IMG/VR virus record: IMGVR_UViG_3300002988_000032
Coordinates: 12,793 to 76,792 of that record
Reading direction: 5' to 3' (one strand)
From: a virus
Length of the DNA stretch: 64,000 nucleotides
Part shown: positions 15,514-35,424 of the stretch, piece after piece
How positions within the stretch are numbered: the stretch's first letter is position 1
Layout: each line of letters starts with the position of its first letter
The notes under the pieces: model-generated
Told to the model about the DNA's origin: nothing
Seen by the model: the letters and a program-made list of their open reading frames with translations, nothing else
The model's database searches: none
Made by a program: the position numbers and the translations under genes

Positions 15514-15741
15514 CTAGTCGGCGGAGTATCGAGCCGACGGCGTGGGGCGTAGCTCGGGCGGACACCTAGGGTCAGTCCATAGGGTCACTAGGACCGTCGC
15601 CGGGCCGGGGATGTCGTTCTCGCCGGCTTCCCAGCGCCGGACTGTCCGCCCACCGTTGCCGCCCAGTTTGAGCGCGTCCGCCATGCCTTGAGCCGAGAGG
15701 CATAGCTTGCGCCGCGCCTCCCGGAAGTCGTCCGGTGTCAT
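15514..15741 (-). CDS. XRE/KorC-like HTH protein (75 aa)
   Basis: MTPDDFREARRKLCLSAQGMADAL...GRTVRRWEAGENDIP. Confidence 0.8.
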   Translation of the reverse strand: MTPDDFREARRKLCLSAQGMADALKLGGNGGRTVRRWEAGENDIPGPATVLVTLWTDPRCPPELRPTPSARYSAD

Positions 15742-15929
15742 CCCACAGCGGCGAGTTTGTCGGGGATGAGGCGAATCGCGATGCGGCTCAGATCGTCAAT
15801 CCGCTTGGATTGTTCCTCGGTCCGAGCGTTGGTCGCGACGATGAGGGGGTACATCGCCTTGAGGAGGCTCTTGATTTCGGCGATGTCGGACTCGATCCTT
15901 GACAAACGCTCGTCGGCAGCTTGGGCCAT
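15738..15929 (-). CDS. Small coiled-coil protein (63 aa)
   Basis: LSRIESDIAEIKSLL heptads; GGAGA RBS; stop overlaps the HTH start. Confidence 0.6.
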   Translation of the reverse strand: MAQAADERLSRIESDIAEIKSLLKAMYPLIVATNARTEEQSKRIDDLSRIAIRLIPDKLAAVG

Positions 15930-15975
15930 GTAAATCTCCATTGATTGGCGGGCACGATCGCCCTTGCACAAGTGT

Positions 15976-16004
15976 AATATAGGTCATGGCGCCCTATATG
16001 GCAA
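15976..16004 (-). promoter_or_regulatory. Sigma70-type promoter with inverted repeat
   Basis: TTGCCA-N17-TATATT; IR ATATAGG (15977-83) / CCTATAT (15993-99). Confidence 0.6.
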
Positions 16005-16335
16005 GCTCAATCGGCGATCCATTTGTCACCCGCGATCGGTCGCACCCTAGCAGTGGGGAGACGGTCCGCCCATGCGGGGTGACGAGGGCGTATGTGTGAC
16101 GCTCCGACTTGGGAGCGTGGTCCGGCACCGTCTCGGCGATATTGTATTCAAATCGATACATTTGGGTCCAGTCCGCGACACACTCGGCTTTCGAATCCCC
16201 CCAGCCGAGGATCCCGCGGTAATCGATTCCCCAGCAATAAATCGCCCCCCTTGGGGCGTCGCGAATCAGCAACTCCGGTTCCGGTATCTCGCGCGGCATC
16301 CTCTTGTATATTTTTGTCATGACATTAATCCTCAA
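15994..16335 (-). CDS. Hypothetical protein (AT-richer)
   Basis: 113-aa ORF in a visibly lower-GC stretch. Confidence 0.45.
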   Translation of the reverse strand: MRINVMTKIYKRMPREIPEPELLIRDAPRGAIYCWGIDYRGILGWGDSKAECVADWTQMYRFEYNIAETVPDHAPKSERHTYALVTPHGRTVSPLLGCDRSRVTNGSPIELAI

Positions 16336-16353
16336 TTATATGGTTTTGTGTTG

Positions 16354-16626
16354 TCAGTTGCGAACGACATCAAAGTAAATCTCACGCTCTCCGTCGTCGT
16401 CCACTCTCTCAACCTCTATCGCCGTGCCTGTTTTTGCCACACATGCCATGGCGGTATCGGCGGCGCTCGGAGTGCCGACGATCACCCACTTTCGCGGCGC
16501 GAGGAGGCGTAGGGACACGGAGACGCCCGTCTCCTCCGCTATCTCAGCGACCATTTGCGCCGTGACGACCGCAAGCGCGACACGCCGCTCGTCTCTCGTG
16601 AGTCCCCGGTGGAAATTGATACCCAT
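16354..16626 (-). CDS. Hypothetical protein (90 aa)
   Basis: ATG with GAGG RBS; co-oriented. Confidence 0.55.
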   Translation of the reverse strand: MGINFHRGLTRDERRVALAVVTAQMVAEIAEETGVSVSLRLLAPRKWVIVGTPSAADTAMACVAKTGTAIEVERVDDDGEREIYFDVVRN

Positions 16627-16698
16627 GGCGGAATCCTCAGTCGGGATTTATGGGGTATCGGCGCCCCTCACAGCGGGAGAGGCGCCGCGTGGGATTGG

Positions 16699-16845
16699 TC
16701 AGGGGCGCCCGCGTAGCCACGCCAGGACATCATCAGCGTCGTAGCGGTAGCGGCGGCCGAAGGCCGCGTCGAACGCCGCGATACTGCGGTCGTGGCCGCG
16801 CACCATGTCGTGAGCTTGGAAAAGGGTCAGATCGAGGCGGTCCAT
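16699..16845 (-). CDS. Hypothetical protein (48 aa, MDRLDLTLFQAHDMVRG...)
   Basis: Read by hand; AGGAGA RBS. Confidence 0.45.
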   Translation of the reverse strand: MDRLDLTLFQAHDMVRGHDRSIAAFDAAFGRRYRYDADDVLAWLRGRP

Positions 16846-16891
16846 TTCGGGGGTCTCCTGTCGGCGCCACGGAACGGGCGATGAGGATTGG

Positions 16892-17125
16892 TCAGACAGC
16901 GCGTGCGGAGTTGATCCGGCGCCAGTTTCGCGCGTCGCACTCGGCGACGATGTGCGGGGTGCCGATCGACGCCGCCGCGGCCCGCATCATTTTCCGGGCG
17001 GTCGCACCCGGATTCCGGCACGCCAGTGTCGCATGGGTGCTGGTGGGGTAGGCGTACCCCGTGCGCCCGGTTGCCGTGTCGCCGGCTGTGAACCCGCCGT
17101 CGTCGTCCATAAGCCAAACGACCAT
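16892..17125 (-). CDS. Hypothetical protein (77 aa)
   Basis: MVVWLMDDDGGFTAGD...YAYPTSTHA; first gene of a leftward mini-operon. Confidence 0.55.
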   Translation of the reverse strand: MVVWLMDDDGGFTAGDTATGRTGYAYPTSTHATLACRNPGATARKMMRAAAASIGTPHIVAECDARNWRRINSARAV

Positions 17126-17244
17126 TTTTGATCCCCATGTTGGCGCCTGGTGGCGCGTTGTGCATGGGTTATGTATGCCATGATGTATGGCACTGCGCAA
17201 GGGGGAAATTCACTGTCCATATCAAAAATGTATGTCATAATGCG

Positions 17245-17273
17245 TTGACAATCCCACAAAAACGCCATACATA
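17245..17273 (+). promoter_or_regulatory. Sigma70-type promoter
   Basis: TTGACA-N17-TACATA upstream of ORF 17300, embedded in CATACAT repeats. Confidence 0.5.
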
Positions 17274-17299
17274 TAGGCCATACAAGTTGGAGAGGCGAA

Positions 17300-17515
17300 A
17301 TGTATGGAATGTCGCGAATTGAAGCCGAATCGTTCGCGATCGCCCTGCGCGACCGCGTCGGTAGCACTCACGACGAGGATCCGGGGAAGATGATCGTCGG
17401 ATATGTCGTCTCCCCATATCCGGGGACGCGCCTTTTTGGCGTCGTCGAAAGGTGGGTCTATGCCGGGAATCCTGAGATGGGCGAATTTGGTGGTGGATTC
17501 GCCTGGAAAGACTGA
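17300..17515 (+). CDS. Hypothetical protein (71 aa)
   Basis: GGAGAGG RBS, downstream of the promoter. Confidence 0.55.
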   Translation: MYGMSRIEAESFAIALRDRVGSTHDEDPGKMIVGYVVSPYPGTRLFGVVERWVYAGNPEMGEFGGGFAWKD

Positions 17516-17554
17516 CGGCCTTGTCTGCCATACGAAAATGCCATACCATGAGGC

Positions 17555-17881
17555 ATGATCATGAGCTTGACCGAGATAGAGGCGCGCGCCCGCGATGCGG
17601 GCTTACCGCCTCCCGTAATCGTCGGAGACCGATTCGTCATTGTCGGCGAATTTCGGCATGACCCGCCCGACGCGCGCGGCCCCGATCCGCGGCGCCATGT
17701 GATGACGCCCGATGATTTTAAAACATGGGCCGAATCCGCCGGCGGGTGGCAGGCGGCGGCCGACTATCTCAATGGTCGGCTCGGGACGCGCTATACGCGC
17801 GCGGATGTATGGCGCTGGGGTAGCGGCGACAAATCCTCGCGCCCGGTCCCGACGAAAATAGCGCGCTTGCTCGGAGAATAA
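17555..17881 (+). CDS. HTH-containing protein (108 aa)
   Basis: C-terminal half MTPDDFKTW...AADYLNGRLGTRYTRADVWRWGSG is an HTH pattern; true start could be the internal MTPDDF. Confidence 0.55.
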   Translation: MIMSLTEIEARARDAGLPPPVIVGDRFVIVGEFRHDPPDARGPDPRRHVMTPDDFKTWAESAGGWQAAADYLNGRLGTRYTRADVWRWGSGDKSSRPVPTKIARLLGE

Positions 17882-17905
17882 TTATATGATGTATGGCGTT
17901 TTCCG

Positions 17906-17934
17906 TTGACGCCAGACGCCATACGACATACATT
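17906..17934 (+). promoter_or_regulatory. Sigma70-type promoter
   Basis: TTGACG-N17-TACATT with CATAC motifs. Confidence 0.55.
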
Positions 17935-17988
17935 ATCTCCATACACAGAGCGGCGAACGCCGCCGCCAAGCCAACCAGGAGACAGTCA

Positions 17989-18240
17989 ATGACGCCGGAA
18001 CGCGAAGCCGAACTGTTCGCCAAGCTCGACCTGATGCTCGAGCTGCATCGGAGGACGGAAGCCGATATCCGAGAGATGCGAGCGGACATTCGCGAAATGC
18101 GAGCCGACGTCGGCGGCATGCGGGCGGAGGCGGCGGAGACGAATAGCCGCCTCTCGAGAGTCGAAGGCCGGATCGAGGAACAGTCCAAATTCTTGCAACT
18201 CACTCTCGCGAGCCGGCAGAGCCGCAAGCCCGCCGCGTGA
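17989..18240 (+). CDS. Small coiled-coil protein (83 aa)
   Basis: ADIREMR-ADIREMR-ADVGGMR heptad repeat; AGGAGA RBS. Confidence 0.65.
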   Translation: MTPEREAELFAKLDLMLELHRRTEADIREMRADIREMRADVGGMRAEAAETNSRLSRVEGRIEEQSKFLQLTLASRQSRKPAA

Positions 18241-18284
18241 CCGGCTTTGCGTCACCCCCCACCGGAGTTTTTTGAGATCGACGT

Positions 18285-18344
18285 GACCCGCTTCAACAAT
18301 CGCCCGTTCCCGTGGGAGTGGGCGACTTTGAAACGAGACACCCC
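18285..18344 (+). repeat. 60-bp hairpin repeat, copy A
   Basis: 58/60 identical to 19005-19064; long imperfect palindrome ending TTTGAAAC. Confidence 0.95.
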
Positions 18345-18413
18345 ACACAAGGGTTTTTTGAAACAGCGCGGCGGGCCGCGGGAGCGGCGACCGGCGTCAA
18401 TAGGGGGTATGAA

Positions 18414-18902
18414 ATGAAATTCCGACTGCACAATGAACAGAGGTCGTCGCCGCTCGAGTATGAATTTCACGCGAGTTGTCAGGACGAACTAGCTGCTGGC
18501 CTCTATAGGGCGTGGATCTCAATTTACTCACAAGAAAAGAATCTCCTAAAATCTGATGAGTGGCTCTTGGCGCACAAAGCTAGGACAGTGGAGTTTTCTG
18601 GGCGGGATCAGCAACTGTACGTCGCTGAAAGGCAGCGTGAATATGCAAGAATTAGAGCGTTTCAGACAGCTAGATATTTTCTTCACGTTGGTTTGTCGGA
18701 AAGCCATCCGTTGGCGCCATGGACTCACGCTGTTGAATACTACGACGTTAGCGGCTTCCGCCATAATCTTATCGTCAACGGCGCCCCAAATGAGCAAATT
18801 TGCGCCCAAAAAAGCAAATCGTTCTTTCAAATTGAGGCGGCGGTCGATGCGCTGGAGATGTGGACCGGGTTTTCCGCCGCCCTTCTCGGCCCCAAGATAT
18901 AA
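18414..18902 (+). CDS. Hypothetical protein (162 aa, lower GC), flanked by direct repeats
   Basis: ATG 18414 after GGGGG RBS; no recognisable family. Confidence 0.6.
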   Translation: MKFRLHNEQRSSPLEYEFHASCQDELAAGLYRAWISIYSQEKNLLKSDEWLLAHKARTVEFSGRDQQLYVAERQREYARIRAFQTARYFLHVGLSESHPLAPWTHAVEYYDVSGFRHNLIVNGAPNEQICAQKSKSFFQIEAAVDALEMWTGFSAALLGPKI

Positions 18903-19004
18903 ACACCAACACAACATATAAAAGCGGGCGGGCCGACGCCCCGGCCCGTGCCGCACGGCACCCCCACCGGAGTTTTTTGAGAAACAGAGCGGACTTCCCC
19001 GCGC

Positions 19005-19064
19005 GACCCGCTTCAACAATCGCCCGTTCCCACGGGAGTGGGCGACTTTGAAACGAGACACCCC
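19005..19064 (+). repeat. 60-bp hairpin repeat, copy B
   Basis: Direct repeat of 18285-18344, exactly 720 bp downstream. Confidence 0.95.
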
Positions 19065-19149
19065 CCCCCGAAGGGTTTTTTGAACAGATCCCCGATTTTT
19101 GAACACCTGGCGCCGCGACGCGGCCGCCACAACACTCGGAGTCCGTCCG

Positions 19150-19722
19150 ATGCCGAACGCCGTGAAATTTTCAGATCTCGTCGCACTCTCGAAAGACGAG
19201 CGACGCGCCGTTCTCTCGTCCCTCTTCCCCTTCGGCGGTCTCATGACCGACGACAATTGTATCATGCACGACGCCGACCGAAACAAACTCATTCGGACCG
19301 CGATCAAGAACGCGGAGACGATTGGTTTGATCCCGGCGGGACTCCGCGTATCGGTGCGGTCGCCGCATTACGGTTCGGTGAAGGTCGAGGTCCGGGTGAC
19401 GAAGTTTCTCATATTGAACCCCGAGCATGTTCGTTACGGTAACGACAATCCCAGTCACACATATTACGACATGCCATGGGAAGCGAGGGAGCGCTTGACG
19501 CCCGCCGGCGAGGCCCTTATGAGCGCGCTCAAGGCTATCGCGTCCCAGTGGCGATATGATCGGTCCGACGCCATGTCGGATCACTTTGATACAAATTACT
19601 ATCTTGACGTTTCGTTCAATTACGAACTTGAACGCACGCAGCGCGCTTGGATCCTGTCCTTCCCGCGGTCGGTCCGCATCAGACCGAAAGTGACGGTTGG
19701 CGTTCAGTCCCGCGCCGCGTGA
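19150..19722 (+). CDS. LPD29-like (large polyvalent protein-associated domain) protein
   Basis: IRTAIK...RVSVRSPHYGSV and YDRSDAMSDHFDTNYYLDV patterns, recalled from memory. Confidence 0.5.
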   Translation: MPNAVKFSDLVALSKDERRAVLSSLFPFGGLMTDDNCIMHDADRNKLIRTAIKNAETIGLIPAGLRVSVRSPHYGSVKVEVRVTKFLILNPEHVRYGNDNPSHTYYDMPWEARERLTPAGEALMSALKAIASQWRYDRSDAMSDHFDTNYYLDVSFNYELERTQRAWILSFPRSVRIRPKVTVGVQSRAA

Positions 19723-19806
19723 CACCCCCCCACAGAGGTTTTTTGAAACGCCGCGCCCGCGCCGGTGATCGCCACCCCCACACCCGCAAGTCGGAAGATA
19801 CCCACC

Positions 19807-22800
19807 ATGTCCGTCACCATCGAATCCGCCGCGCTCAAGTCCGCTCTCGCCCGCGTCAAATGGGCGTGCGATCTCAAGTCGCGCATCCCCATCCTCGCAT
19901 GCGCTCGCATCGAGGCGCGTGGAGGGGAGGTCGTCATGACGACGACGGACATGGACGCGCTCGCGACGATCGTGGTTCCGGCGGACTCGTCGGAGGCGTG
20001 GACGGTCGCGGTCCCGTTCAAAGCTCTCGAAGCCGCGGCCAAGACAACAAAAGGATCGATCGAGCTTTCCACCGCGGCCGGCGGGTTGCTGATCCGCGCT
20101 GGCGCCGGACAATCGACCATCAAGGCTCTCGACCACTCCGATTTTCCGAGCTGCGTCAATCTCGGCGATCTCGGCGGATCGATCGTCATCCCCGCGTCGA
20201 CGCTCCGCGACATCTCCCGCAAGGTCGGATTCGCGATGTCGACGGACGACCGGCGCTATTACCTCCGCGGCATCCACATCCACCGCGACGAGACGGGATT
20301 CCACGCGGTCGCGACGGATGGTCACCGCATGGCGGTCATGGACGTCGCGGCGCGCTCCAGCGCCGGAACGTGGGATCCGGTGATCGTCGCTCACGGCTCG
20401 ATCAATGGATTGGGCAGGGCGCTCCCCGGAAGATACGCCGGAGATGTTGAAATCGAGCGGTTCGAACGGGGGGTCATCATCCGATTGCCGGACATGACAA
20501 TCGTATCCAAGGCGATCGACGGAACTTTCCCCGACTACAAACGCGTCGTCCCGTCTTTCCATCTTCGCCCGCCCGCTTCCGCCACGGTCGACCGCGCCGC
20601 GCTTCTGTCCGCTCTCTCCTCCGTCGGTTCCGCGGAACAGGCCGGATTCTACAGCGACGGTCGAGAACTGGTCATTCAAACCGACGACGCCGACGGCGGA
20701 GAGGCGGAGTCCGCCCTTCCCGCGGACTTTTCGGGCGATTTCCGGCGCTTCGGCGCGAACCGAAAGTATATGCTCGACGCCGCGACGGCGTTCGACGGAG
20801 ATAACGTCACCATCGCCCACGACGGGCCGGACTCCCCGATGGTGATCCGCGACGGCGACGCCGGATATTATCAAGTTCTCATGCCGTGCGGGCTTTTTGA
20901 AAAAATGCGCCCGCGCTCGAGCCTGGCGGACCCCGTCGTCGCGGACGCGCCCACCCCGGCGGAGGTTTTCGAAGTCGCGGAGGAAGCGCCGTCGGATCCG
21001 TCCACCGTCGAAATCATCGAAGCCGAAAGCGACGCGAGAGACACGCCCCCGGCGGAGGTTTTCGGAGAGCCGCGCCCCGCGGAAGCCGCGGGGGATGCGC
21101 CCGCGTCCGAAACGATCGAATGCGCCGTTCCCGACACCGACGATTCACCCCGCGACACGACCGGCGCTCGCGACGAAATCGCGGCCCGCTATGCCGCCGA
21201 ACTGGGGGCGAACGAGGTCAGCGACTTTCACCGCGCGTTCGCCGACGGGATTCTTCAACGGGACGCGGAATCCCTGATGTGGATTGTCAACGGCGTCAAC
21301 AAAGTCGCGCCGCGCCTCTTCCAGGCCGTGACCGGCTATCGGCTCCCTCGCGGGATCGCGGCGGGCCGAGCCGCGCTCGAGGCGTGGGGCGGACGCGCGG
21401 GCGTTCTTGTCGACATGGCGTGGAAAGAGGACTCCGCGGCGCTATGGCGAAGGGTCAAGTCCAGGAGAGTCGCGGCCGAGCGCATCATCATGGGCGAACG
21501 AACGGCGGCGGAGGTTGTCGACGACTTTATCGCCGACGGGTTCCGAGAACTCGTCTCCGCGACGACCGACGGCGGCCGGCGAGTTTTCCACTTGGTCAGG
21601 CCGACCGACGGCTTCCGGGTGAACCTGTCCGTTCATCGTGGAGCGGCCGTCTCCGCCTACGCCCGCGCGGTCATCGCCGCGATGGATCACGACGCCGCGA
21701 ACTCCGCCCCCCCGGCGGAGTTTTTGGAAGATCCCGCCCCGATCGACGACGCGTCTTCCGCCTCCGCCTTCGCCACGCTCGAACGCGCCGTCGTCGCGGA
21801 GTCAGACGAACCGCTCGGCCCGTTGGTCGTCGCCTATGAACAAGCGGTCGCGCGGGAGCGGGGGGAGGAGTGGAAAGCGCCGAAGCCGAGAGCGGAACGA
21901 AGCGCCGGGCGCGGCAAGCCTCCGGCGCGCGAACTTCCGGCGGACAAAAAAGCGGAAATGGTCGAAATCGTCGGCGTCGACTGGCGCGGAATTCCCGCGG
22001 CGATGATCGCCGTCGCGGAATACCTCGTCGCGCGCGATGCGCTGGAAGATTTCCCCTGGGCGATCTCCCACCACCTCTTCCGCCTCCCCAACGGACAAGT
22101 CCGCAACGCGTCCTCCGACGACACGGCGGAGTATCGCGCGGCGTTGGGGCGTGTCCGGGACGCCCTGGCCGCGTTCGAAGCCGCGGTCGGCTCTCCTCAC
22201 GCCCGTCTCGCTCTCGGATTGGAGGTGGACGCGAGAGACGCGGCCCCGGCGGAGGTTTTTGGAGACGCGGCGGGCACGCCGGAAGCGCCGTCCCCCGTCG
22301 AAATCGCCGAAGTGAAGGAGCGCGCGCGAGATGTTCCCCCGGCGGGGGAAGGCGAGAAGCTCGCACCGGCTCCGCGGTGGAGAGGGGGAAAGTTCCGCCT
22401 CCACGAAACACCGGCGGTGAGAATCGGAAAGCACGAATGGCGCGTTGCCGTCGTCATCGATCCGTATTTGGGGCGGACGCGATTTTCCGAATGGCGTCAC
22501 CTTGAATCCGTGGGCGAGTGGAATCATTACAGAGACTGGCCGTCGTATGATTTCAACGGACATCGCTCCGGTCTTCCGGCTTCCATCGGGAAAAAAGTTT
22601 ACGACAAGTTTGAAGCTGAAATCGACGCGGCGATGAATCGGAAATTCGATGAGGCGACCGCACGCACGATCCTTGACGACGCGCGCGCGTATTTTGAAAA
22701 ACGCACCGACCTCGCGACGGTCGCCGCGGAACTTGGGGTATCGCTTGAAGGCGCCGCCGCGGCGGTCGCGGGCGCCCCGCCGGAGGTTTTTGAAGCGCGC

Positions 22801-22866
22801 CATCTTTCGACCGCGCCGTTTTTCGCTTGCCCCATACATACGATGTATGTATCTTTCTCTTTGTGA
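19807..22866 (+). CDS. dnaN: DNA polymerase III beta clamp fused to a ~660-aa multi-module extension
   Basis: N-terminal ~360 aa has TTDMD, FAMSTDDRRYYLRGI, VATDGHRMA, IDGTFPDYKRVVP, VLMP clamp motifs; frame stays open to 22866. Confidence 0.8.
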   Translation: MSVTIESAALKSALARVKWACDLKSRIPILACARIEARGGEVVMTTTDMDALATIVVPADSSEAWTVAVPFKALEAAAKTTKGSIELSTAAGGLLIRAGAGQSTIKALDHSDFPSCVNLGDLGGSIVIPASTLRDISRKVGFAMSTDDRRYYLRGIHIHRDETGFHAVATDGHRMAVMDVAARSSAGTWDPVIVAHGSINGLGRALPGRYAGDVEIERFERGVIIRLPDMTIVSKAIDGTFPDYKRVVPSFHLRPPASATVDRAALLSALSSVGSAEQAGFYSDGRELVIQTDDADGGEAESALPADFSGDFRRFGANRKYMLDAATAFDGDNVTIAHDGPDSPMVIRDGDAGYYQVLMPCGLFEKMRPRSSLADPVVADAPTPAEVFEVAEEAPSDPSTVEIIEAESDARDTPPAEVFGEPRPAEAAGDAPASETIECAVPDTDDSPRDTTGARDEIAARYAAELGANEVSDFHRAFADGILQRDAESLMWIVNGVNKVAPRLFQAVTGYRLPRGIAAGRAALEAWGGRAGVLVDMAWKEDSAALWRRVKSRRVAAERIIMGERTAAEVVDDFIADGFRELVSATTDGGRRVFHLVRPTDGFRVNLSVHRGAAVSAYARAVIAAMDHDAANSAPPAEFLEDPAPIDDASSASAFATLERAVVAESDEPLGPLVVAYEQAVARERGEEWKAPKPRAERSAGRGKPPARELPADKKAEMVEIVGVDWRGIPAAMIAVAEYLVARDALEDFPWAISHHLFRLPNGQVRNASSDDTAEYRAALGRVRDALAAFEAAVGSPHARLALGLEVDARDAAPAEVFGDAAGTPEAPSPVEIAEVKERARDVPPAGEGEKLAPAPRWRGGKFRLHETPAVRIGKHEWRVAVVIDPYLGRTRFSEWRHLESVGEWNHYRDWPSYDFNGHRSGLPASIGKKVYDKFEAEIDAAMNRKFDEATARTILDDARAYFEKRTDLATVAAELGVSLEGAAAAVAGAPPEVFEARHLSTAPFFACPIHTMYVSFSL
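22827..22855 (+). promoter_or_regulatory. Sigma70-type promoter with palindromic operator
   Basis: TTGCCC-N17-TATCTT; IR ATACATAC-gat-GTATGTAT (22834-22852). Confidence 0.7.
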
Positions 22867-22910
22867 GGCGGACGGATCGACCGATCGCCCCGAACCGGGA
22901 GACCGAAGAA

Positions 22911-23411
22911 ATGGGCACCGAAATGGGTTTGGACAAAGCCGCGCATCTGCGCGCCCGTAAAATTCTGGATTTTACGCCGGACCGCGCTCCATCAGTCAAA
23001 GCCGCATGCGCGTGCGCCCGGACGGCGCTCCGCTTTGTGCCGGAAGGCGAGGAGCGCCCGCGCCTCGCGATCGTGGCGGCGGAAGCGTGGGCCGAAAATC
23101 CGACGAGTGACGATCTACTTGATGCCGCCCTCGCCGCGTCCCATGCCGCTGGGGTGTTTGCGTGCGGTGTCCCCCAAGGCGTGGGCGAGGACGCCGCCGC
23201 CTACGCCGCCTACGCCACCAACTTGATAATGTTTGATCCGACGGAAGCCCCGACACTGACCATAAACGCGATCGTCGAAGCTCGCGCGCACGCTGCCGAC
23301 CTTGTGCGGCACGCCCATGACTCCGGAGTACGCGCAGCGTACGAGGCCCTTCGCTACGACACCAAGCGCGAAATGGACGAAATTGTCAGACGATACACCA
23401 TCAACGCGTGA
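22911..23411 (+). CDS. Hypothetical helical protein (166 aa)
   Basis: AACACARTALRFVPEGEERPRLAIVAAEAW, an Imm5-like helical pattern; GGGAGA RBS. Confidence 0.6.
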   Translation: MGTEMGLDKAAHLRARKILDFTPDRAPSVKAACACARTALRFVPEGEERPRLAIVAAEAWAENPTSDDLLDAALAASHAAGVFACGVPQGVGEDAAAYAAYATNLIMFDPTEAPTLTINAIVEARAHAADLVRHAHDSGVRAAYEALRYDTKREMDEIVRRYTINA

Positions 23412-23424
23412 GGGGAGGGCAAAA

Positions 23425-24006
23425 ATGACGATAAGCCTATACGTCGGACTGACGAACGGAAAATTTCGGGAGGAGCTGACGGTTGACGGTGGCCACATCG
23501 ACGCGACGCCGCTCGAGGGGGGCTGCCATCGCGGTGGCGAACTTGTCATTGCGCACTGGATCGGTCCGGGCAGAGTCAGCCGCTTATGGGTGCGGCCTGG
23601 ATACGAGGCTAGGGGACGCGTGCTCGCCGACCAGTTCGACGCCTATGCCAAAAGAGAGCAAGACGAGTGGATGAGCAATGATGACGATCGGGATCGCAGA
23701 AATTGGGCAAAGCGGAACGCTATCCCCGAAGATAATGTAAAGATTTATAACGTCTATTCCCGAAAGATCAAAAAATTTGTCAACCACTTAAAGATAGACG
23801 AAAAAGACGCCGAGTGGGACTGCGAACAGGTATTTGCGACGAGTGGCGCCGGCGCGATTTATATGTTCCGCGAAGAATATCGCCTATGGGAATGGGACTA
23901 CGAGGTGAAAGCCTTCGAAAAGATCACCACGCACCAAAAAGACCCCGACGACGGCTGGGAAGAGCGCTGGGAAGCCGCCGTGAAGGCCGATGGAGCGGCC
24001 ACATGA
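23425..24006 (+). CDS. Hypothetical acidic protein (193 aa)
   Basis: GGGGAGG RBS; Trp/Asp/Glu-rich; lower GC. Confidence 0.65.
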   Translation: MTISLYVGLTNGKFREELTVDGGHIDATPLEGGCHRGGELVIAHWIGPGRVSRLWVRPGYEARGRVLADQFDAYAKREQDEWMSNDDDRDRRNWAKRNAIPEDNVKIYNVYSRKIKKFVNHLKIDEKDAEWDCEQVFATSGAGAIYMFREEYRLWEWDYEVKAFEKITTHQKDPDDGWEERWEAAVKADGAAT

Positions 24007-24518
24007 TCCGTGTCTTTATCCGCGACGAGGCGGGATCCCTGTCCGACTACATCGCGACCGACGATCCGGTCGAGGCGGAGGCGCACTACCTTCGCCTTAT
24101 CCAGATCCGCACGGTCACCCCCACGACGGCGATCATCGATCCAGGTCGCCCGACCGGGGCGCTGCTCCCGGCGCGCTACCGCCTTGACAAGACTTGCTCA
24201 CCCCCGGAAAGGGAGCAGGAAATCGAAAGGGGGGCGGTCCAGTGGCTGCCGTCCGGATCCCCGACCGTCGCGATGGTGAGAGGCCTCGCTTTGAGGCTAC
24301 GCGAAGATCATGGGGCGACGCGCGACGCTCTCGCGGCGTCGGTCGGCTACACAAAGGCCGCATGGGACGCGTGGGCAATGCCGGAGGCGGCGAAGGGGCA
24401 CCGAAGGATCCCGTGGGGGATCTACACGCTCGCCCTCATCAGGTGGGGGCTTCACCCCGACCATGCCCTGCGTAGAGGATCCCGGTCAGCCGCTCCGCGC
24501 CGCGTCGGGCGAGGTTGA
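24003..24518 (+). CDS. Protein with C-terminal KorC/Aca1-like HTH (171 aa)
   Basis: PTVAMVRGL...GATRDALAASVGYTKAAWDAW...GHRRIPWGIYTLAL; ATGA overlap with the upstream gene. Confidence 0.55.
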   Translation: MIRVFIRDEAGSLSDYIATDDPVEAEAHYLRLIQIRTVTPTTAIIDPGRPTGALLPARYRLDKTCSPPEREQEIERGAVQWLPSGSPTVAMVRGLALRLREDHGATRDALAASVGYTKAAWDAWAMPEAAKGHRRIPWGIYTLALIRWGLHPDHALRRGSRSAAPRRVGRG

Positions 24519-24728
24519 CGACGGCGGTGTGTGACACCCCCAGCGTCCGGGCGATCTGGCGGGTCGGCACGCCCGCCGCCGTCCCGGTCATGGCCAGGCA
24601 CCAGGCCCGCGTCCGCGCCGCGTCGCCCCCCGGTGGAGGTTTTTGAAGCGGCGAACGACTCCGCTCGGACCGGACCAACCCAAACGACCGCCGCCGACCC
24701 CCGGAATGGGTTTTTGGAGAGCCGCCCC

Positions 24729-25559
24729 ATGAAACCGATGCTCGCCGCCCCGTTCGAAGGGCCGATCACCTATCCCCGTATCGCCGAACCGAAGGCCAAC
24801 GGCATCCGCGGAATGGTCCGCGTTGAAAACGGGCGCGTCGTCTCCGCCGTCTCCCGTGAAGGCCGCGACCTTCCGGCGCTCGCCGGCGCGGTCGTGAAAC
24901 TCGCGCGCTCCGCCGGCGGGCCGTGTTGGCTCGACATGGAACTCCTCGCCGACACGGGCTTCGCGGGGACGCTTTCAGCCGCGAGGGGGCAGACCCAAGC
25001 CCGGCTGGCGCTCCACCCGCTCGACCTCGTGCGCGACGGGGAGTCCAAGAATCTCGTCGACAGGTTGGCGGACGTGGATGCGGTCGTCGCGGCGTGCGGG
25101 GATCCCCGCGTCATCCGCCTGGAGAGGCGCGTCGTCCACAACGAGGCGGAGGCGAGGGAAGCCTATGCCGAGTACCGGGCGAAAGGTTGGGAAGGCGCGA
25201 TGCTGAAGTCCCCCCGCTCCCTCTACGAGCCGGGGAAGCGCGGGGACGCGTGGGTGAAGTTGAAGCCCGCCCTTGACATGGACTGCGAAATCGTCGACGC
25301 ATACGAGGGAAAGGGAAAACACGCCGGGTCGCTCGGCGGGTTCGTCGTCCGCACGCCGTTCGGCGTTTTATGCCGCGTCTTCCCCGGCAAGGACGTCTCC
25401 AACGCCGATCGCGCGCGCCTCTGGACGATACGCGGCTCACTACGCGGGACGACCTGCGAGGTGTCATACCAAGAGGTTCTGGCGTCCGGGCAACTCCGTC
25501 ATGGCCGCTTCGAGAGGGTCCGCACCGATCGGGGCGCGTTCGCCTATCGCGCCGCGTGA
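24729..25559 (+). CDS. Minimal ATP-dependent DNA ligase (276 aa)
   Basis: EPKANGIR (motif I), LDMEL (III), WEGAMLK (IV), WVKLK (V), OB fold ending LRHGRFERVRTD. Confidence 0.85.
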   Translation: MKPMLAAPFEGPITYPRIAEPKANGIRGMVRVENGRVVSAVSREGRDLPALAGAVVKLARSAGGPCWLDMELLADTGFAGTLSAARGQTQARLALHPLDLVRDGESKNLVDRLADVDAVVAACGDPRVIRLERRVVHNEAEAREAYAEYRAKGWEGAMLKSPRSLYEPGKRGDAWVKLKPALDMDCEIVDAYEGKGKHAGSLGGFVVRTPFGVLCRVFPGKDVSNADRARLWTIRGSLRGTTCEVSYQEVLASGQLRHGRFERVRTDRGAFAYRAA

Positions 25560-25944
25560 TCCCCCATCGCGGTTTTTTGGAGGCCCCCCGATCGCGGCTT
25601 TTCGGACTCCCGAATGGTTTTCGGACTCCCGAATGGCGTATCATCCGCGATTGTCGCGTCCCATGCGGGCGCGGATGACCCGTACCCACCGGCACCGGGT
25701 GGAAACAGCACGATGTCGCGCCCTTATGGGCGCGGATGATTCCGTTATGCTTCGGCGGGAGCAAACCAAAGAACATTGGATGTCACGCTTTGAATTTCCA
25801 TAACGTATCTTATTGGTCGAATTCATGTGTAGCCGCGAAGATGGGCCGTCAGGACGGGGTCGACGCGGCGCGGTGTTGGATCGCATCCATGCGGGAGGCG
25901 CGGCGCTTTGAGGCCGCGCCGCGAGATAATGAGGGAGAGGACCA

Positions 25945-26283
25945 TTGAACACGATCATTCTCGATGTCGTCACCTTCGAACTGGACCGGCGCGGGATCCC
26001 TCACACGATCACGCACGGGGGAAAACATGCCAAGGTGAGTTTCGTCGTTGACGGCCGCCCCCGGCACCAAGCGGTGTCCCTATCGCCGTCCGATCATCGG
26101 GCGCCGCGAAACGCCCTATCGGAATTGCGCCGCAAACTGCCGACGGAGCCGCGCGAGGATAAGGCCGGTGAGCGCGCGAGGAAGAGGCCCCGAGGACGAT
26201 CGGCCCCCGTCTCTCGGACGCCCACGTTCGAGTGGACCAACAAGTCGGACCCGTTCGCGGTATTGGCGAATTTTGGGAGGTAG
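25945..26283 (+). CDS. HicA-like small RNase/toxin-fold protein
   Basis: GGKHAKV...SLSPSDHRAPRNALSELRR pattern; TTG start with GGAGAGG RBS. Confidence 0.55.
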   Translation: MNTIILDVVTFELDRRGIPHTITHGGKHAKVSFVVDGRPRHQAVSLSPSDHRAPRNALSELRRKLPTEPREDKAGERARKRPRGRSAPVSRTPTFEWTNKSDPFAVLANFGR

Positions 26284-26395
26284 GGGGGACGACCGCTGGG
26301 TCTAGGCCGACATGGGTATGGCGGCCCGACGGAACCGCGAACTGAATCCAAAAAGGGGATTTTCGGCGACCGCACGTTCCTGTTATGTTCCAGCC

Positions 26396-26671
26396 ATGGA
26401 ACCGACCCACGGAGATACCGCTCTCGAGACCTTGAGGCGTCGCGGGGCGACGACGCTGGAGATTTGGTGCGTCTCGGGATGGGTGGACGGAAAGCGATGC
26501 CGAAACCATGGTTCCGTCAAGATCGACGAGGCTGTCCGGCGATGGGGGCCGGGGACACCGTTGGTGATGATCGCCCGTCGAGCGCGCTGTCGACTATGCG
26601 GCGCGCGAGGCGCCCATGTTCAGGCGACAACACCCTATTCCACACCCCACCCCACACCGGCGAATTGGTGA
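26396..26671 (+). CDS. Zn-binding hypothetical protein (91 aa)
   Basis: WC...C and RCRLCGARGA cysteine pairs. Confidence 0.55.
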   Translation: MEPTHGDTALETLRRRGATTLEIWCVSGWVDGKRCRNHGSVKIDEAVRRWGPGTPLVMIARRARCRLCGARGAHVQATTPYSTPHPTPANW

Positions 26672-26815
26672 TCTCGACCCGGCCTCGCCCTTATGAAGGC
26701 GTTTCAACCTTCTCAACGCGCAGTCGATCCACGTCGATATTCAAACACCGCGACGCCCAGCGCGCGAAGTGAAGACGCGTCCACGAGAGCGAGGGGACCG
26801 GCGGCGGTTTTCGTC

Positions 26816-27229
26816 TCAGAACGGAATATCGTCGTCGAGATCGTCGTGGCGCGGCGCGGTTTCCGTCGGTCGGGGGCGCGCCGGAGCGCTTGCCTTCTCG
26901 TCGTGATCGCCTTGCCCTTCGGGTTTCCCGCCGACGAGCGTCACATCGTTGACCCGGACCCGAAGGCCGGACGCCTTCGATCCGTCTCGACGCTCAAACT
27001 CATGGATCGTCAACTCTCCCGAGACGACGACCTGCTGTCCCTTTTTGAGGTGCGGCGCGACGGCTTCCGCCCGCTTTCCCCACATCGAGCACTCGACCCA
27101 TTGCGTGGTCTTGCGGTCGCCGAAGCCCACGTCGTTCGCGGCGCGGAAGCTCAGCACGCGCTCGCCGCTCTGCGTCGTCCGCAACTCGCCGTCGGCGCCG
27201 AGGCGCCCGGTGAAGGTCCATACGTTCAC
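26816..27229 (-). CDS. ssb: Single-stranded DNA-binding protein
   Basis: GRLGADGELR OB fold, TQWVECSMWG, acidic tail DDDIPF. Confidence 0.95.
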   Translation of the reverse strand: MNVWTFTGRLGADGELRTTQSGERVLSFRAANDVGFGDRKTTQWVECSMWGKRAEAVAPHLKKGQQVVVSGELTIHEFERRDGSKASGLRVRVNDVTLVGGKPEGQGDHDEKASAPARPRPTETAPRHDDLDDDIPF

Positions 27230-29259
27230 GCGGCTTCTCCATCCTGTTCGGTGTTGGTGTTCGCCCCGCCTTGGGGCGTGGCGTCCTCATCCGGCACACC
27301 TTCCCAGGCGGATTCAGGAATGACGATCTTCGTGTTGTCGCGGACCCATTGCTCGGCGCCCGCTTCGTTCATTCTCGGGTCCGGCATCCCCCGCTTTCTC
27401 AGGTTATAGACGGTCGCCTCGCTCACATTGAGTCTCCGCGCAAAGCTGCACAGCGTTTTCTGTGTTTTTTTGCTGATATCAAGGGCGGACGACAGGAGGT
27501 ATACTCGCTCAACGCTGATGTTCTCTATGATCCATTTGCCTGATCCGGCATCATCAATTCTCGGATCTGGCATCCCACGCGCCATCCAACCGCAAATTGT
27601 TGAAGTGGATACATGGTTTTTTTTCGCGAATTCTGTGAGCGACGTAGAAAACTTATTTGCATCACGTTTTGCGCGAGACCGCTTTCTCAGAGAATCTCTA
27701 TCGACGTTATTTTTGATCCACGCGTCCGCCTCGGCATGATCGCGCGTAGGATCCGGCATGCCGCACTTTCTCCATCTTATAATTGACCCTATCCCAATAC
27801 CTCTACTATTGGAAAACCGAGTTAAAGTCTCACCGGTTTCCTTGCTGTTTTTCAGTGTAGCATTAAGCTGCCTTATTCTATCCGCATCGACATTTCGTTC
27901 AATCCAGTCTATAGCCGCCCCAGCCCCGGCATTAGGGTGTGGCATCCCACGGCTAATCCAGTTGTGAATGGTCGCCTTCACGACCCCGCATTCTTTTGCG
28001 AAACCACTCACCGTCATCGGTTTCGCTGCGCCGCACCTTATTTCGTGGAGCGCCCCATCAAACCGCCCCGGCTCCCGCCCCGCCGGATACTCGTACCCGC
28101 ACTCCGGGCAGATTGCGGAGATCGGATGGGCGCATCCGCACTTCGGGCAACGGCGGATCACCTCTCCCGCCTTCCGGGCGTTCTCGATCCGGCGCGTTCG
28201 CGCTCCACCCTCAAGAGACCATTCAAACGTCGCGTCCGGGAACCCGTGCTCCATGCACATTCCGGCGTGGTCGAGAACCGTCACGATGGTTTTCCCGGCA
28301 TCCAACCGAAGCCCGCGCCCAACCATTTGCAGGAAGACGCGGAGCGACCTCGTGGGGCGCAACAGGATCACGGTTTCGATGCCGGGAACGTCGAAGCCCT
28401 CGATAAACAGGTCGACGTTGACCAAAACTTTGATCCGCCCGGCGGCGAAATCCGCGACGAGGAGATCTCGTTCGGCATCCGGGGAGTTGCCGGAGACGTG
28501 AGCGGCGGATATCCCCGCCTCTTGGAACCGCGCGGCGACATTCTCGCTCATGGCGACGGACGGGCAAAAGACGATTGCCCGCGTCCCCGGCGCGATGCGC
28601 TGGTAATGCTCGATCGCGTCGCCAATCAGGACCGGGCGGTTCATGGCCTTGTCCAGATCGTCGGCGCGGTAGTCGCCCTTGCTCATGCGCGCGGCAGTCA
28701 AGTCCGGCTCGGTCGGGGCGAACCAGCGAAAGCGCGATAGATGCCCGGCGTCGATCAGATCCGCGACCGACGGCCCGACAACCAGCGCCTCGAACAGGTC
28801 GTCCAGCCCCTTCCCGTCCAGCCGTTCCGGTGTCGCGGTCAGTCCGACATGGGCGGCTTGCGGGTGACGCCGCATCAACGCGGCCCACGTCTTCGCCGCC
28901 GCGCGGTGGCATTCATCCCACATGACCGTTTTCGGCTTTGGGAACTCCGCGTCGTGGTTCCGCAGGGTATCGACGGAACCGATTTGCATGAGCTTGCCCG
29001 GCTCTCGCTTCGCCCACGGGGCGATGACGCCAAAATCGATCCCGGCGCGTTTGAACGTCCGCATCGCTTGTTTGATCAGTTCCTTTCGGTGGCACAGGAA
29101 CCACACGGGACCGACCCCAAGCCGTTCCCGCGCGATCTCCACCCCCGTGAAGGTCTTTCCCGATCCGGTCGGCATTTGCAAGACGACGGAGTGATGGGTT
29201 TCGAGCGCCGCCCGCACATCGGTGACGGCCTTGAATTGGTATGGTCGAAGCGCGCTCAC
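27226..29259 (-). CDS. SF2 (DEAD/DEAH-like) helicase with Zn ribbon and four C-terminal wHTH repeats
   Basis: LRPYQ, MPTGSGKT, DECH, LTATP, EGFD, QMVGRGLR; CPKC/CPEC; four GMPxP repeats. Confidence 0.9.
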   Translation of the reverse strand: MSALRPYQFKAVTDVRAALETHHSVVLQMPTGSGKTFTGVEIARERLGVGPVWFLCHRKELIKQAMRTFKRAGIDFGVIAPWAKREPGKLMQIGSVDTLRNHDAEFPKPKTVMWDECHRAAAKTWAALMRRHPQAAHVGLTATPERLDGKGLDDLFEALVVGPSVADLIDAGHLSRFRWFAPTEPDLTAARMSKGDYRADDLDKAMNRPVLIGDAIEHYQRIAPGTRAIVFCPSVAMSENVAARFQEAGISAAHVSGNSPDAERDLLVADFAAGRIKVLVNVDLFIEGFDVPGIETVILLRPTRSLRVFLQMVGRGLRLDAGKTIVTVLDHAGMCMEHGFPDATFEWSLEGGARTRRIENARKAGEVIRRCPKCGCAHPISAICPECGYEYPAGREPGRFDGALHEIRCGAAKPMTVSGFAKECGVVKATIHNWISRGMPHPNAGAGAAIDWIERNVDADRIRQLNATLKNSKETGETLTRFSNSRGIGIGSIIRWRKCGMPDPTRDHAEADAWIKNNVDRDSLRKRSRAKRDANKFSTSLTEFAKKNHVSTSTICGWMARGMPDPRIDDAGSGKWIIENISVERVYLLSSALDISKKTQKTLCSFARRLNVSEATVYNLRKRGMPDPRMNEAGAEQWVRDNTKIVIPESAWEGVPDEDATPQGGANTNTEQDGEAA

Positions 29260-29417
29260 TCCTCACCCTCCCCGCTCAAGTCCGGCTCACGGAACGGCGT
29301 GCGGTCGCGGAATTCGGATCGCTTGCCCTTGTTGAACGACGTGACCGGGCGGTGATAGCCCATCACCCGCGTCCAGATTTCGCAGCGTTGGCGTTCGGAA
29401 TCTTGGAGATCGGTCAT
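29256..29417 (-). CDS. Stand-alone NrdD C-terminal (glycyl-radical motif) peptide, 53 aa
   Basis: Read by hand: RCEIWTRVMGYHRPVTSFNKGKRSEFRDR; overlaps neighbours at both ends. Confidence 0.7.
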   Translation of the reverse strand: MTDLQDSERQRCEIWTRVMGYHRPVTSFNKGKRSEFRDRTPFREPDLSGEGEE

Positions 29418-35414: not shown

Positions 35415-35424
35415 ATTCACTCAC

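What the first reader, a model, noticed from the sequence alone, without database searches (positions are those of the whole stretch)
18255..25626. Strand-specific C-run/GGAGG/T-run motif repeated at least 12 times, only in the accessory island, at gene and domain junctions
Seen: a CCCCC-N4-6-GG(A/G)GGTTTTT(T/C)G(A/G)A motif recurs on the plus strand from 18255 to 25626, and I did not notice it elsewhere in the 64 kb. Several copies follow stop codons (18255, 19725, 25561). Others sit in frame inside the DnaN fusion, encoding PPAEVF(E/G), and separate its modules. Many copies end TTTGAAAC or TTTGAAGC, like CRISPR handles. Inference: a shared junction sequence that lets modules be swapped, fused or split by recombination or homopolymer slippage, or a reiterated RNA processing/pausing or protein-binding signal. 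I cannot match it to a described element.
Basis: partly seen in the sequence, partly recalled or inferred. Interest (0 to 1): 0.8.

Follow-up and report, generated by a model that had tools for sequence, protein, structure and literature searches.

The report
Phage gene-junction repeat motif
A short one-directional DNA motif marks the ends of genes and protein modules in one accessory operon of a temperate phage and two relatives, and gene blocks have been inserted, duplicated, reordered and fused at these sites.

Summary
Thirteen plus-strand copies of a 22-nt core (CAC-C4-9, 7-9 nt G-rich spacer, T4-6, G-R-R) lie between 18255 and 25582. No copy occurs elsewhere in the 78.5-kb phage genome on either strand. 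Five copies are in frame in the 1019-aa DnaN fusion, read PPAEVF(E/G), and sit between modules that have free-standing homologues.

A profile built from these copies found the same one-strand cluster in the matching operon of two related proviruses (TerL 53% identical). There it lies next to or over stop codons, in tandem pairs, and once in frame in another fusion protein. Blocks of homology between the three phages begin and end at motif copies. In this phage a 125-nt unit with two copies flanks a low-GC inserted gene.

Hairpin potential is no better than in shuffled sequence, so these are not classical terminators. The resemblance to CRISPR handles is weak. The clamp-binding-peptide reading is not excluded but is poorly supported.

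Best reading: a conserved gene-boundary element of an early accessory operon. It probably acts as a T-tract pause or weak-termination signal. Comparison shows that it also serves as a recombination joint, much like the PeSL cassettes of T4-type phages. The biochemical function is unproven.

The parts
18255..18277 (+). copy 1, 15 nt after the TGA of ORF 17893-18240 (C6, T6)
18341..18362 (+). copy 2, directly after the 63-nt hairpin repeat and 54 nt before ATG 18414
18961..18982 (+). copy 3, paralogue of copy 1 in the right arm of the 125-nt duplication. It is 87% identical over 31 nt to the in-frame copy of relative G001.
19061..19085 (+). copy 4 (C9), paralogue of copy 2. The left homology boundary of gene X lies just downstream.
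19725..19747 (+). copy 5, 2 nt after the TGA of gene X. Homology with the relatives' gene X ends here.
20954..20973 (+). copy 6, in frame (PTPAEVFE), in the disordered linker after DnaN
21046..21066 (+). copy 7, in frame (PPAEVFG), before module A
21709..21730 (+). copy 8, in frame (PPAEFLE), between modules A and B. It is the only copy with a strong hairpin (9 bp, -22 kcal/mol).
22244..22264 (+). copy 9, in frame (APAEVFG), between modules B and C. It shares a 57-nt similarity with copy 7.
22775..22794 (+). copy 10, in frame (PPEVFE), after module C and near the end of the ORF
24626..24647 (+). copy 11, non-coding on the plus strand, upstream of the ligase gene. It overlaps the possible minus-strand HTH ORF 24439-24678.
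24698..24719 (+). copy 12, 10 nt before the ligase ATG. Its GGAGAG tail serves as the ribosome-binding site. Similar to copy 7 beyond the core.
25561..25582 (+). copy 13, 1 nt after the ligase TGA
25583..25636 (+). degenerate tandem copies, including a perfect 19-nt x2 duplication
20881..20911 (+). motif-like GGGCTTTTTGAAAAA at the natural C-terminus of DnaN (..MPCGL), where the fusion begins
   Evidence: (D8)
22323..22347 (+). decayed in-frame copy without a T-run (PPAGEGE), the end of the duplicated 93-nt linker unit
   Evidence: (D7, D10)
18282..18344 (+). 63-nt hairpin repeat, left copy (a separate element that travels with the motif)
   Evidence: (D9)
19002..19064 (+). 63-nt hairpin repeat, right copy
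   Evidence: (D9)
18414..18902 (+). low-GC ORF (about 48% GC) bracketed by the 125-nt duplicated unit: an inserted cassette
19150..19722 (+). gene X, 59% identical to the N-terminal module of a 686-aa fusion ORF in relatives G001 and L035. Bounded by motif copies in all three phages.
19807..22866 (+). 1019-aa DnaN fusion: DnaN, linker, module A, module B, linker, module C
24726..25559 (+). ATP-dependent DNA ligase, flanked by copies 12 and 13

Best explanation
The motif is a conserved, oriented gene-boundary element of one early accessory (anti-defence-type) operon in a small clade of temperate siphophages. Its core is CAC-C4-9, a 7-9 nt G-rich spacer ending in GG, T4-6, then G. Similarity often extends to about 50 nt.

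Shown by comparison: its copies are the places where gene cassettes are inserted, duplicated, reordered and fused. When a stop codon is absent, the element is read through in frame as a Pro-rich linker, PP(A/P)E(V/F)F(E/G).

Inferred: selection keeps the sequence at the nucleotide level because it punctuates transcription of the operon. It would be a T-tract signal with little hairpin that makes the host RNA polymerase pause or terminate weakly, possibly with NusG or NusA help, or that marks an RNA-processing site. The repeated similarity then gives recombination a foothold, as in the PeSL cassettes of T4-type phages.

My confidence that it is a junction and breakpoint element is about 0.8. 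My confidence in the pause or weak-termination mechanism is about 0.35.
For: 1. Thirteen copies lie on one strand only, confined to 7.4 kb of a 78.5-kb genome.

2. An HMM built only from these copies finds one-strand clusters in the orthologous operon of two proviruses with TerL about 53% and gene X 57-59% identical. G001 has 8 hits, all on one strand within 3.8 kb of 88 kb. L035 has 7 hits.

3. In the relatives the copies sit 0-6 nt after a stop codon or over it, in tandem pairs upstream of gene X, and once in frame (APPPEVFG) between modules of a 686-aa fusion that ends in a methyltransferase.

4. Breakpoints coincide with copies. Homology of gene X between this phage and G001 starts about 25 nt after copy 4 (and after G001's tandem pair) and stops at the codon before TGA plus copy 5. 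The G001/L035 block is about 85% identical. Identity falls to 55% or less at the tandem copies on its left and at copy e on its right, and to 13-30% beyond. The homologue of ORF 17555-17881 occupies a different position in the gene order and is flanked by motif copies in G001.

5. A 125-nt unit (motif, hairpin, motif) is duplicated on both sides of a low-GC ORF. This is the product expected from insertion of a circle by one crossover.

6. There are signs of nucleotide-level constraint. The in-frame core is 25/25 identical between G001 and L035 while the flanks are 73-78% identical and third codon positions 73%. Our non-coding copy 3 is 87% identical over 31 nt to their coding copy, although gene X is only 66% identical in DNA. 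The in-frame copies use the rare codons GTT (13% of Val) and TTT (18% of Phe).

7. T5-6 runs are rare in this 65% GC genome. All 29 copies have G, or CG, after the T-run and G-rich sequence before it. These features match the described pause determinants G-10, Y-1, G+1 and the NusG-type TTNTTT motif, which is reported as widespread outside gamma-proteobacteria (PMC12288461).
Against: 1. No transcript data exist, so neither pausing, termination nor processing has been shown.

2. Hairpins next to the T-run are no better than in composition-matched shuffles: mean score 8.5 against 7.4. Most 50-nt windows fold no better than shuffles. The terminator scan flags only 2-3 copies.

3. Five copies lie inside a continuous ORF, where termination would truncate the message.

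4. T5 copies match TTNTTT only partly.

5. The motif is confined to one operon. A general host-read signal would be expected in other operons too.

6. Only three genomes carry it, and two of them are close relatives. Part of the conservation could therefore reflect exchange rather than selection.
Confidence: 0.45

Rival explanations
1. The copies are binding sites on DNA, or on the transcript, for a sequence-specific protein. This would resemble the stoperators of Cluster A mycobacteriophages: asymmetric sites within a transcribed region where a bound regulator blocks elongation and keeps the accessory operon silent in the lysogen.
For: The 22-nt core aligns without gaps and has conserved sequence rather than conserved structure. 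All copies share one orientation. Many lie at stop codons, as stoperators do (PMC9283540, PMC6550527). Tandem arrays have 19-23-nt spacing. HTH genes lie in and beside the operon.
Against: The middle of the motif is variable and C-run length varies from 4 to 9, which is unusual for an operator set. The motif is restricted to one operon rather than spread over the genome. The operon's promoters carry a different short repeat (GCCATAC) that looks more like the operator. No binding protein has been identified.
Confidence: 0.2
2. The motif is primarily coding. It would be the 3' tail of clamp-client gene cassettes, a Pro-rich spacer followed by a variant beta-clamp-binding peptide (P-A-E-V-F compared with Q-L-D-L-F). 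This peptide would tether modules to the fused or host clamp. The non-coding copies would be relics, or be reached by reading through TGA.
For: Module C belongs to a family in which 24 of 27 aligned members end in Q-x-x-[LM]-F at the position where the fusion has PPEVFE. Some homologues of module A end in Q-x-G-F-x-F. The partner is a beta clamp, and a ligase, a classical clamp client, is followed by a copy. All seven in-ORF copies (five here, one in each relative, the latter two orthologous) give P-P-x-E-(V/F)-(F/L). The linker is disordered.
Against: A C-run gives Pro and a T-run gives Phe in any frame, so the likeness is largely automatic. The canonical Gln is missing. The same DNA element is non-coding in one phage and coding in another. 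Copies after stop codons show no consistent frame (frames A 4, C 4, B 1-2). There are tandem non-coding copies. Synonymous sites are frozen. No other protein of the phage carries the peptide. The DnaN fusion of G001 lacks the motif.
Confidence: 0.1
3. The motif is the recognition site of a dedicated cassette recombination system, analogous to an integron attC site. It would have no role in gene expression.
For: Breakpoints, duplication, reordering, apparently empty tandem sites and single orientation all fit this.
Against: No recombinase gene was recognised in or beside the operon in any of the three phages. The motif has no inverted-repeat core of the kind used by tyrosine or serine recombinases. 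Similarity extends variably into the flanks, as expected for homologous rather than site-specific exchange.
Confidence: 0.1
4. The copies are functionless leftovers of serial segmental duplication within one island.
For: Copies 1 with 3 and 2 with 4, the two 93-nt linkers, and the tandem copies are plainly duplications.
Against: The motif persists at corresponding and at new positions in phages whose proteins are only 53-59% identical. The core stays intact while the flanks diverge.
Confidence: 0.08

Closest known systems
PeSL (promoter-early stem-loop) regulatory cassettes of T4-type phages (PMC2839356, PMC4122927)
   Same: Short conserved motifs repeated between small accessory genes in plastic regions. 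Insertions, deletions and replacements between related phages have their end points in the motif. Recombination between copies shuffles modules.
   Different: A PeSL is a strong sigma-70 promoter plus an effective stem-loop terminator. Here no -10 element accompanies the TTGxxx part (and inspection), and no hairpin exceeds chance. Copies also occur in frame inside ORFs and are translated. The host phages are temperate siphophages, not T4-like myoviruses.
Stoperators of Cluster A mycobacteriophages (PMC9283540, PMC6550527)
   Same: Asymmetric sites in one orientation relative to transcription, many at stop codons, some inside genes.
   Different: Stoperators are tightly conserved 13-14-bp sites spread over the whole genome and bound by the immunity repressor. 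This motif is looser, 22 nt long, and confined to one operon. No binding protein is known.
Suboptimal intrinsic terminators and NusG-dependent (TTNTTT) or elemental (G-10, Y-1, G+1) pause signals (PMC12288461)
   Same: A T-tract on the non-template strand, G-rich sequence upstream, G immediately downstream, and a weak or absent hairpin.
   Different: No experimental evidence here. T5 copies match TTNTTT only partly. A conserved CAC-Cn arm is not part of those signals.
Gene-boundary (linker) sequences of lambdoid phages (from my own knowledge of the HK97/HK022/lambda comparisons, not checked here)
   Same: Short conserved sequences at gene boundaries that coincide with mosaic joints.
   Different: Those sequences differ at each boundary. 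They are not one motif repeated 13 times on one strand.
Beta-clamp-binding motif QL[SD]LF
   Same: The in-frame translation x-A-E-V-F lies in disordered linkers after modules whose homologues carry canonical motifs.
   Different: It lacks Gln. The composition follows from the C-run and the T-run. Binding has not been shown.

Membership tests
Intrinsic (Rho-independent) terminator | G+C-rich hairpin of 5 bp or more ending just before the U-tract | tested here: not met
   Only copy 8 (9 bp) and copy 13 (5-6 bp) qualify. The scan flags 2-3 of 13. Window folds have z-scores near or above zero. Over 29 copies, stems next to the T-run score 8.5 against 7.4 in shuffles.
Intrinsic (Rho-independent) terminator | U-tract on the transcribed strand downstream of a gene | tested here: met
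   T4-6 in every copy, on the coding strand. Three of the 13 follow a stop codon within 15 nt, and copy 3 follows the TAA of ORF 18414-18902 by 58 nt. Five copies are inside an ORF.
PeSL-type regulatory cassette | Sigma-70 promoter within the cassette | tested here: not met
   Only copy 1 has a -10-like hexamer at 17 nt (TTGAGA-17-AACAAT, 9/12). No consistent -10 follows the other copies (inspection).
PeSL-type regulatory cassette | Clustered in a plastic accessory region, with rearrangement end points between relatives in the motif | tested here: met
PeSL-type regulatory cassette | Mini-circles formed by recombination between copies | not testable with these tools
   No sequencing run could be listed. 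The duplication flanking ORF 18414-18902 is the expected integration product.
Stoperator | Asymmetric conserved site in one orientation with respect to transcription | tested here: met
   All 13 copies here, 8 in G001 and 7 in L035 lie on the coding strand of the operon.
Stoperator | Distributed over the whole genome in both arms | tested here: not met
   Confined to 7.4 kb of 78.5 kb here and to 3.8 kb of 88 kb in G001.
Stoperator | Bound by the phage immunity repressor | not testable with these tools
Beta-clamp-binding motif | Consensus Q-L-[SD]-L-F or Q-x-x-hydrophobic-x-hydrophobic | tested here: not met
   The peptides are P-A-E-V-F, P-A-E-F-L and P-P-E-V-F. The acidic, aliphatic and Phe positions fit, but Gln is absent. 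Homologues carry true Q-x-x-L-F tails.
Beta-clamp-binding motif | Peptide occupies the hydrophobic pocket of the clamp | not testable with these tools
   In the AF2 model of DnaN plus linker, the linker stays below pLDDT 50. That is not decisive either way.
CRISPR repeat or 5'-handle mimic | Repeat-length hairpin followed by (A/T)TTGAAAC | tested here: not met
   Two of 13 copies end in TTTGAAAC and two in TTTGAAGC. There is no repeat-type hairpin and no Rfam match at E of 1 or less. The adjacent 63-nt hairpins are a different element.
Integron attC | Imperfect inverted repeats with RYYYAAC and GTTRRRY core sites, and an adjacent integrase | tested here: not met
   No such cores appear in the alignment. 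No integrase or recombinase hit among the operon ORFs scanned. The scan was not exhaustive.

The most novel reading that the evidence does not exclude
The motif is the joint of a phage-borne gene-cassette system. It would be a stop-free, frame-tolerant site at which accessory and anti-defence cassettes are captured, reordered and, by losing one stop codon, welded into polyvalent fusion proteins such as the DnaN fusion. A dedicated but still unrecognised factor would read it, so this would be functionally an integron-like array in a temperate phage.
Probability: 0.12. Interest if true: 0.85.

Novelty: new variant of a known kind. Interest (0 to 1): 0.55.

Why it matters
Phage accessory and anti-defence regions evolve by swapping small cassettes. 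Outside T4-type phages (PeSLs) and integrons, the sequences that guide this swapping are hardly known. This case offers a compact, conserved joint in temperate phages that appear to be of alphaproteobacteria (nearest prophage relative in an Azospirillum genome). It marks gene ends, coincides with mosaic breakpoints, and survives in frame as the linker of multi-module fusion proteins. It therefore links operon punctuation, modular exchange and the origin of polyvalent proteins in one testable element. If it proves to be a hairpin-poor pause or termination signal, it would also be a natural example of such a signal used repeatedly within one operon.

Tried and rejected
- Complex prediction of DnaN with the 64-aa linker carrying two copies: no verdict. 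It is not evidence either way.
- AF2 model of DnaN plus linker: the linker is disordered and no docking signal is visible in pLDDT.
- Sequencing runs holding the stretch: none was listed, so homopolymer heterogeneity and RNA ends could not be examined.
- Rfam on 15000-28000: no match at E of 1 or less.
- DNA similarity to phage records: none.
- Close homologues of the fusion's C-terminal part, the ligase and gene X in the word-indexed protein database: only the phage's own proteins.
- Exact-pattern scans. CCCCGGCGGAGGTTTT in viral contigs gave 7 single, unclustered hits. CACCCCCNNNGGAGGTTTTTG gave only the two relatives in viral contigs and four single hits in metagenomes. The hairpin 21-mer gave nothing in prokaryote genomes. 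Gene X gave nothing in metagenomes.
- Phage-encoded RNA polymerase as reader of a promoter-like motif: none found. The 2593-aa ORF is a tape-measure protein.
- Suppressor tRNA for TGA read-through: no tRNA genes in the window.
- Frame bias of post-stop copies relative to the upstream ORF: not significant once the frame is defined by the T-run.
- Slippage of T6 to T5 as the general way fusions arose: rejected. In the ungapped alignment T6 and T5 differ by a G/T substitution.
- Frameshift onto a TGA: works for only 2-3 copies.
- A Q-like antiterminator downstream of the island (a lambda nin-region analogy): no family hit for 26693-27409.
- Clamp-binding tails among neighbours of dnaN in other phages: no pattern.
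- Global MAFFT alignment of the whole fusion with module homologues was unusable for folding.

Full report
CONTEXT. The window is part of a 78,487-bp virus record with 65% G+C. It is a temperate-type siphophage. It has a lambda-like large terminase, portal, S49-type protease and major head protein on the minus strand, and a 2593-aa tape-measure protein. A helicase and a replication initiator lie at 27226-30661. No RNA polymerase gene was recognised among the ORFs scanned, and the window holds no tRNA genes. The capsid protein is about 38% identical to those of Dinoroseobacter and Pseudanabaena phages of similar size. The nearest prophage TerL found in a named genome (53% identity) lies in an Azospirillum genome. 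The finding lies in a plus-strand operon that starts at sigma-70-like promoters near 17230 and 17906 and runs to the ligase gene.

Thirteen plus-strand copies lie between 18255 and 25582, with degenerate tandem copies up to 25636. A loose expression matches 10 times on the plus strand and never on the minus strand in the whole genome, always inside the stretch. A profile of the 13 copies finds nothing else better than E 0.5. Windows around the copies align to each other with scores of 30-82, against a background maximum of 24, and the similarity often extends from about -35 to +25 around the T-run.

The copies align almost without gaps to a 22-nt core, CCCCC-(G/A)(G/C)N-GG(A/G)G-(G/T)TTTT(T/C)-G(A/G)(A/G), usually preceded by CA. 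Copies 1 with 3 and 2 with 4 are the two arms of a 125-nt duplication. Only four copies end in TTTGAAAC or TTTGAAGC.

THE FUSION ORF IS REAL AND THE COPIES SEPARATE ITS MODULES. GC3 and GC2 periodicity stays in one frame from 19750 to 22800. Residues 1-363 form a confident beta-clamp fold, and the following 68 residues, which carry copies 6 and 7, are disordered. An exhaustive search shows that module A (about 21175-21624) has free-standing homologues of 180-270 aa. It also occurs inside giant proteins, one of which carries a DarA_N domain. Module C (about 22399-22644) belongs to a large family of proteins of 90-120 aa. Module B is an orphan. The five in-frame copies lie in the linkers and read PP(A)E(V/F)(F/L)(E/G).

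A PROTEIN-LEVEL LEAD THAT WEAKENED. Of 27 aligned members of the module C family, 24 end in a canonical beta-clamp-binding tail, Q-x-x-[LM]-F. Some module A homologues end in Q-x-G-F-x-F. These modules are therefore clamp clients, and their fusion to a clamp makes functional sense. PAEVF shares the acidic, aliphatic and Phe positions of QLDLF.

Several points count against this reading. A C-run encodes Pro and a T-run encodes Phe in every frame. The Gln is missing. No other protein of the phage carries the peptide. The in-frame copies use the rare codons GTT (13% of Val) and TTT (18% of Phe) without synonymous variation. As shown below, the same element is non-coding in one phage and coding in another. 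The post-stop copies show no consistent frame.

RELATIVES CARRY THE MOTIF IN THE SAME OPERON. The fusion, the ligase and gene X have no close homologues in the large protein sets. However, the HMM built from this phage's copies hit a one-strand cluster in L013, a provirus found through TerL.

That provirus (G001, 88,101 bp) has eight hits, all on one strand within 3.8 kb and none elsewhere. A third phage (L035), found with an alignment of gene X, has seven. No further carriers turned up in viral, metagenome or prokaryote collections.

In the relatives the copies occupy these positions:
- a tandem pair upstream of gene X;
- one in-frame copy (APPPEVFG) between the N-terminal modules and the C-terminal N6-methyltransferase module of a 686-aa ORF;
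- two copies directly after that ORF's TGA;
- one copy with the TGA inside its spacer;
- one copy directly after the next gene's stop.

BREAKPOINTS MAP TO THE MOTIF. Gene X of this phage is 59% identical in protein and 66% in DNA to the first module of the relatives' 686-aa ORF. The similarity begins about 25 nt after copy 4 (and after their tandem pair). It ends at the last codon before TGA plus copy 5, where the relatives continue with other modules.

G001 and L035 are 85% identical across the operon block. Identity falls to 55% or less at the tandem copies on the left and at copy e on the right, and to 13-30% beyond. The homologue of ORF 17555-17881 sits upstream of gene X here but downstream of it in G001, where motif copies flank it.

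L035 has a 21-nt tandem duplication of one copy. This phage has a perfect 19-nt x2 duplication at 25599-25636. The low-GC ORF 18414-18902 is bracketed by the duplicated motif-hairpin-motif unit, which is the structure left by a single crossover with a circular cassette. C-run length differs between paralogous and orthologous copies, while the T-run is stable.

WHAT KEEPS THE SEQUENCE. The in-frame core is 25/25 identical between G001 and L035. Its 60-nt flanks are 73-78% identical and third codon positions 73%. Our non-coding copy 3 matches their coding copy at 87% over 31 nt. This points to constraint on the nucleotides.

Structure is not what is conserved. Only copy 8 has a strong hairpin. 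Stems next to the T-run are no better than in shuffled sequence across all 29 copies.

What is conserved is the CAC-Cn arm, a G-rich spacer of 7-9 nt ending in GG, the T-run, and a following G. These features overlap with described determinants of polymerase pausing: G at -10, a pyrimidine at -1 and G at +1, and the T-rich TTNTTT motif read by NusG on the non-template strand in most bacteria other than gamma-proteobacteria (PMC12288461).

I therefore favour a pause or weak-termination (attenuation) signal, with RNA processing at GG|UUUUU as a close variant. Both are inferences. A sequence-specific binding protein, in the manner of a stoperator, is the main rival.

COMPARISON WITH KNOWN ELEMENTS. 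The closest analogue is the PeSL cassette of T4-type phages: repeated regulatory motifs between accessory genes whose copies are the end points of indels and replacements and which form mini-circles (PMC2839356, PMC4122927). The present motif shares the genomic behaviour but not the anatomy. It has no promoter and no reliable stem-loop. It is also tolerated in frame, where it becomes a linker of fusion proteins. It is not a stoperator by distribution, not a classical terminator, not an attC site and not a CRISPR repeat or handle (see the membership tests).

VERDICT. This is a real, conserved gene-junction element that has no name yet: a new variant of the regulatory-cassette kind of recombination joint. 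Its association with mosaic breakpoints and gene fusion is shown by comparison. Its molecular reader is unknown.

Noticed in passing
window 22399-22644 (module C) and proteins P0002-P0113: Module C belongs to a family of small (90-120 aa) phage and MGE proteins with a conserved IGKHEWR...WP.YD.ND..GLP core. Of 27 aligned members, 24 end in a canonical beta-clamp-binding tail (Q-x-x-L/M-F). This appears to be an unnamed family of clamp clients; Pfam found nothing for the two module C members scanned (P0002, P0005) or for the fusion ORF itself.
   Followed up: partly
window 21175-21624 (module A): Module A has free-standing homologues. It also occurs inside giant polyvalent-type proteins, one of which carries DarA_N. 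The polyvalent-protein survey (PMC5512222) does not mention sliding clamps, so a clamp fused to such modules seems undescribed.
   Followed up: partly
G001 33473-35713 (loci L038/L032): The relative also encodes a DnaN fusion (open frame of 746 codons) but with a different, unrelated C-terminal partner. It lies on the other strand and has no motif. Clamp fusions recur in this clade.
   Followed up: partly
L032 8165-8192 (minus strand); window 18300-18340 and 19020-19060: Upstream of gene X, G001 has a solitary sequence that looks like a type I-C CRISPR repeat (GTCGCCCCTTCAGGGGCGTGGATTGAAAG). Its Rfam CRISPR-DR9 hit is weak (E 3.4). It sits where this phage has its two 63-nt hairpin repeats, and L035 lacks it. 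These are candidate repeat-mimic (RNA anti-CRISPR-like) units.
   Followed up: partly
window about 17140-17300, 17520-17560, 17885-17935; L032 reverse complement about 6675-6700: Short GCCATAC/GTATGGC repeats surround the operon's sigma-70-like promoters and recur in the relative. They are probably operator sites of the operon's regulator.
   Followed up: no
window 24439-24678 (minus strand): A 79-aa ORF antisense to the operon has weak HTH hits of the kind seen in transposase or terminase N-termini (HTH_50, HTH_38, HTH_23, all below the Pfam cut-offs). It overlaps the 3' end of ORF 24003-24518 and copy 11.
   Followed up: partly
window 25640-25830: After the tandem motif copies come two similar hairpins (GTCGCG(T/C)CC..GGGCGCGGATGA, about 25652-25680 and 25714-25740) and an AT-richer stretch. 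The architecture is reminiscent of an origin or a regulatory region.
   Followed up: no
window 18076-18137: A 21-nt x3 in-frame tandem repeat (IREMRAD heptads) lies in the coiled-coil ORF 17893-18240.
   Followed up: no
window 24516-24726 and 19720-19807; L032 reverse complement 6032-6150: Neighbouring genes lie in the same frame, separated only by one or two TGA codons with an open frame between them (ORF 24003-24518 to the ligase; gene X to DnaN; the 686-aa ORF to the next ORF in G001 and L035). Between G001 and L035, three 1-nt indels in this spacer add up to 3. This may be chance, or recent splitting and fusing of ORFs.
   Followed up: partly
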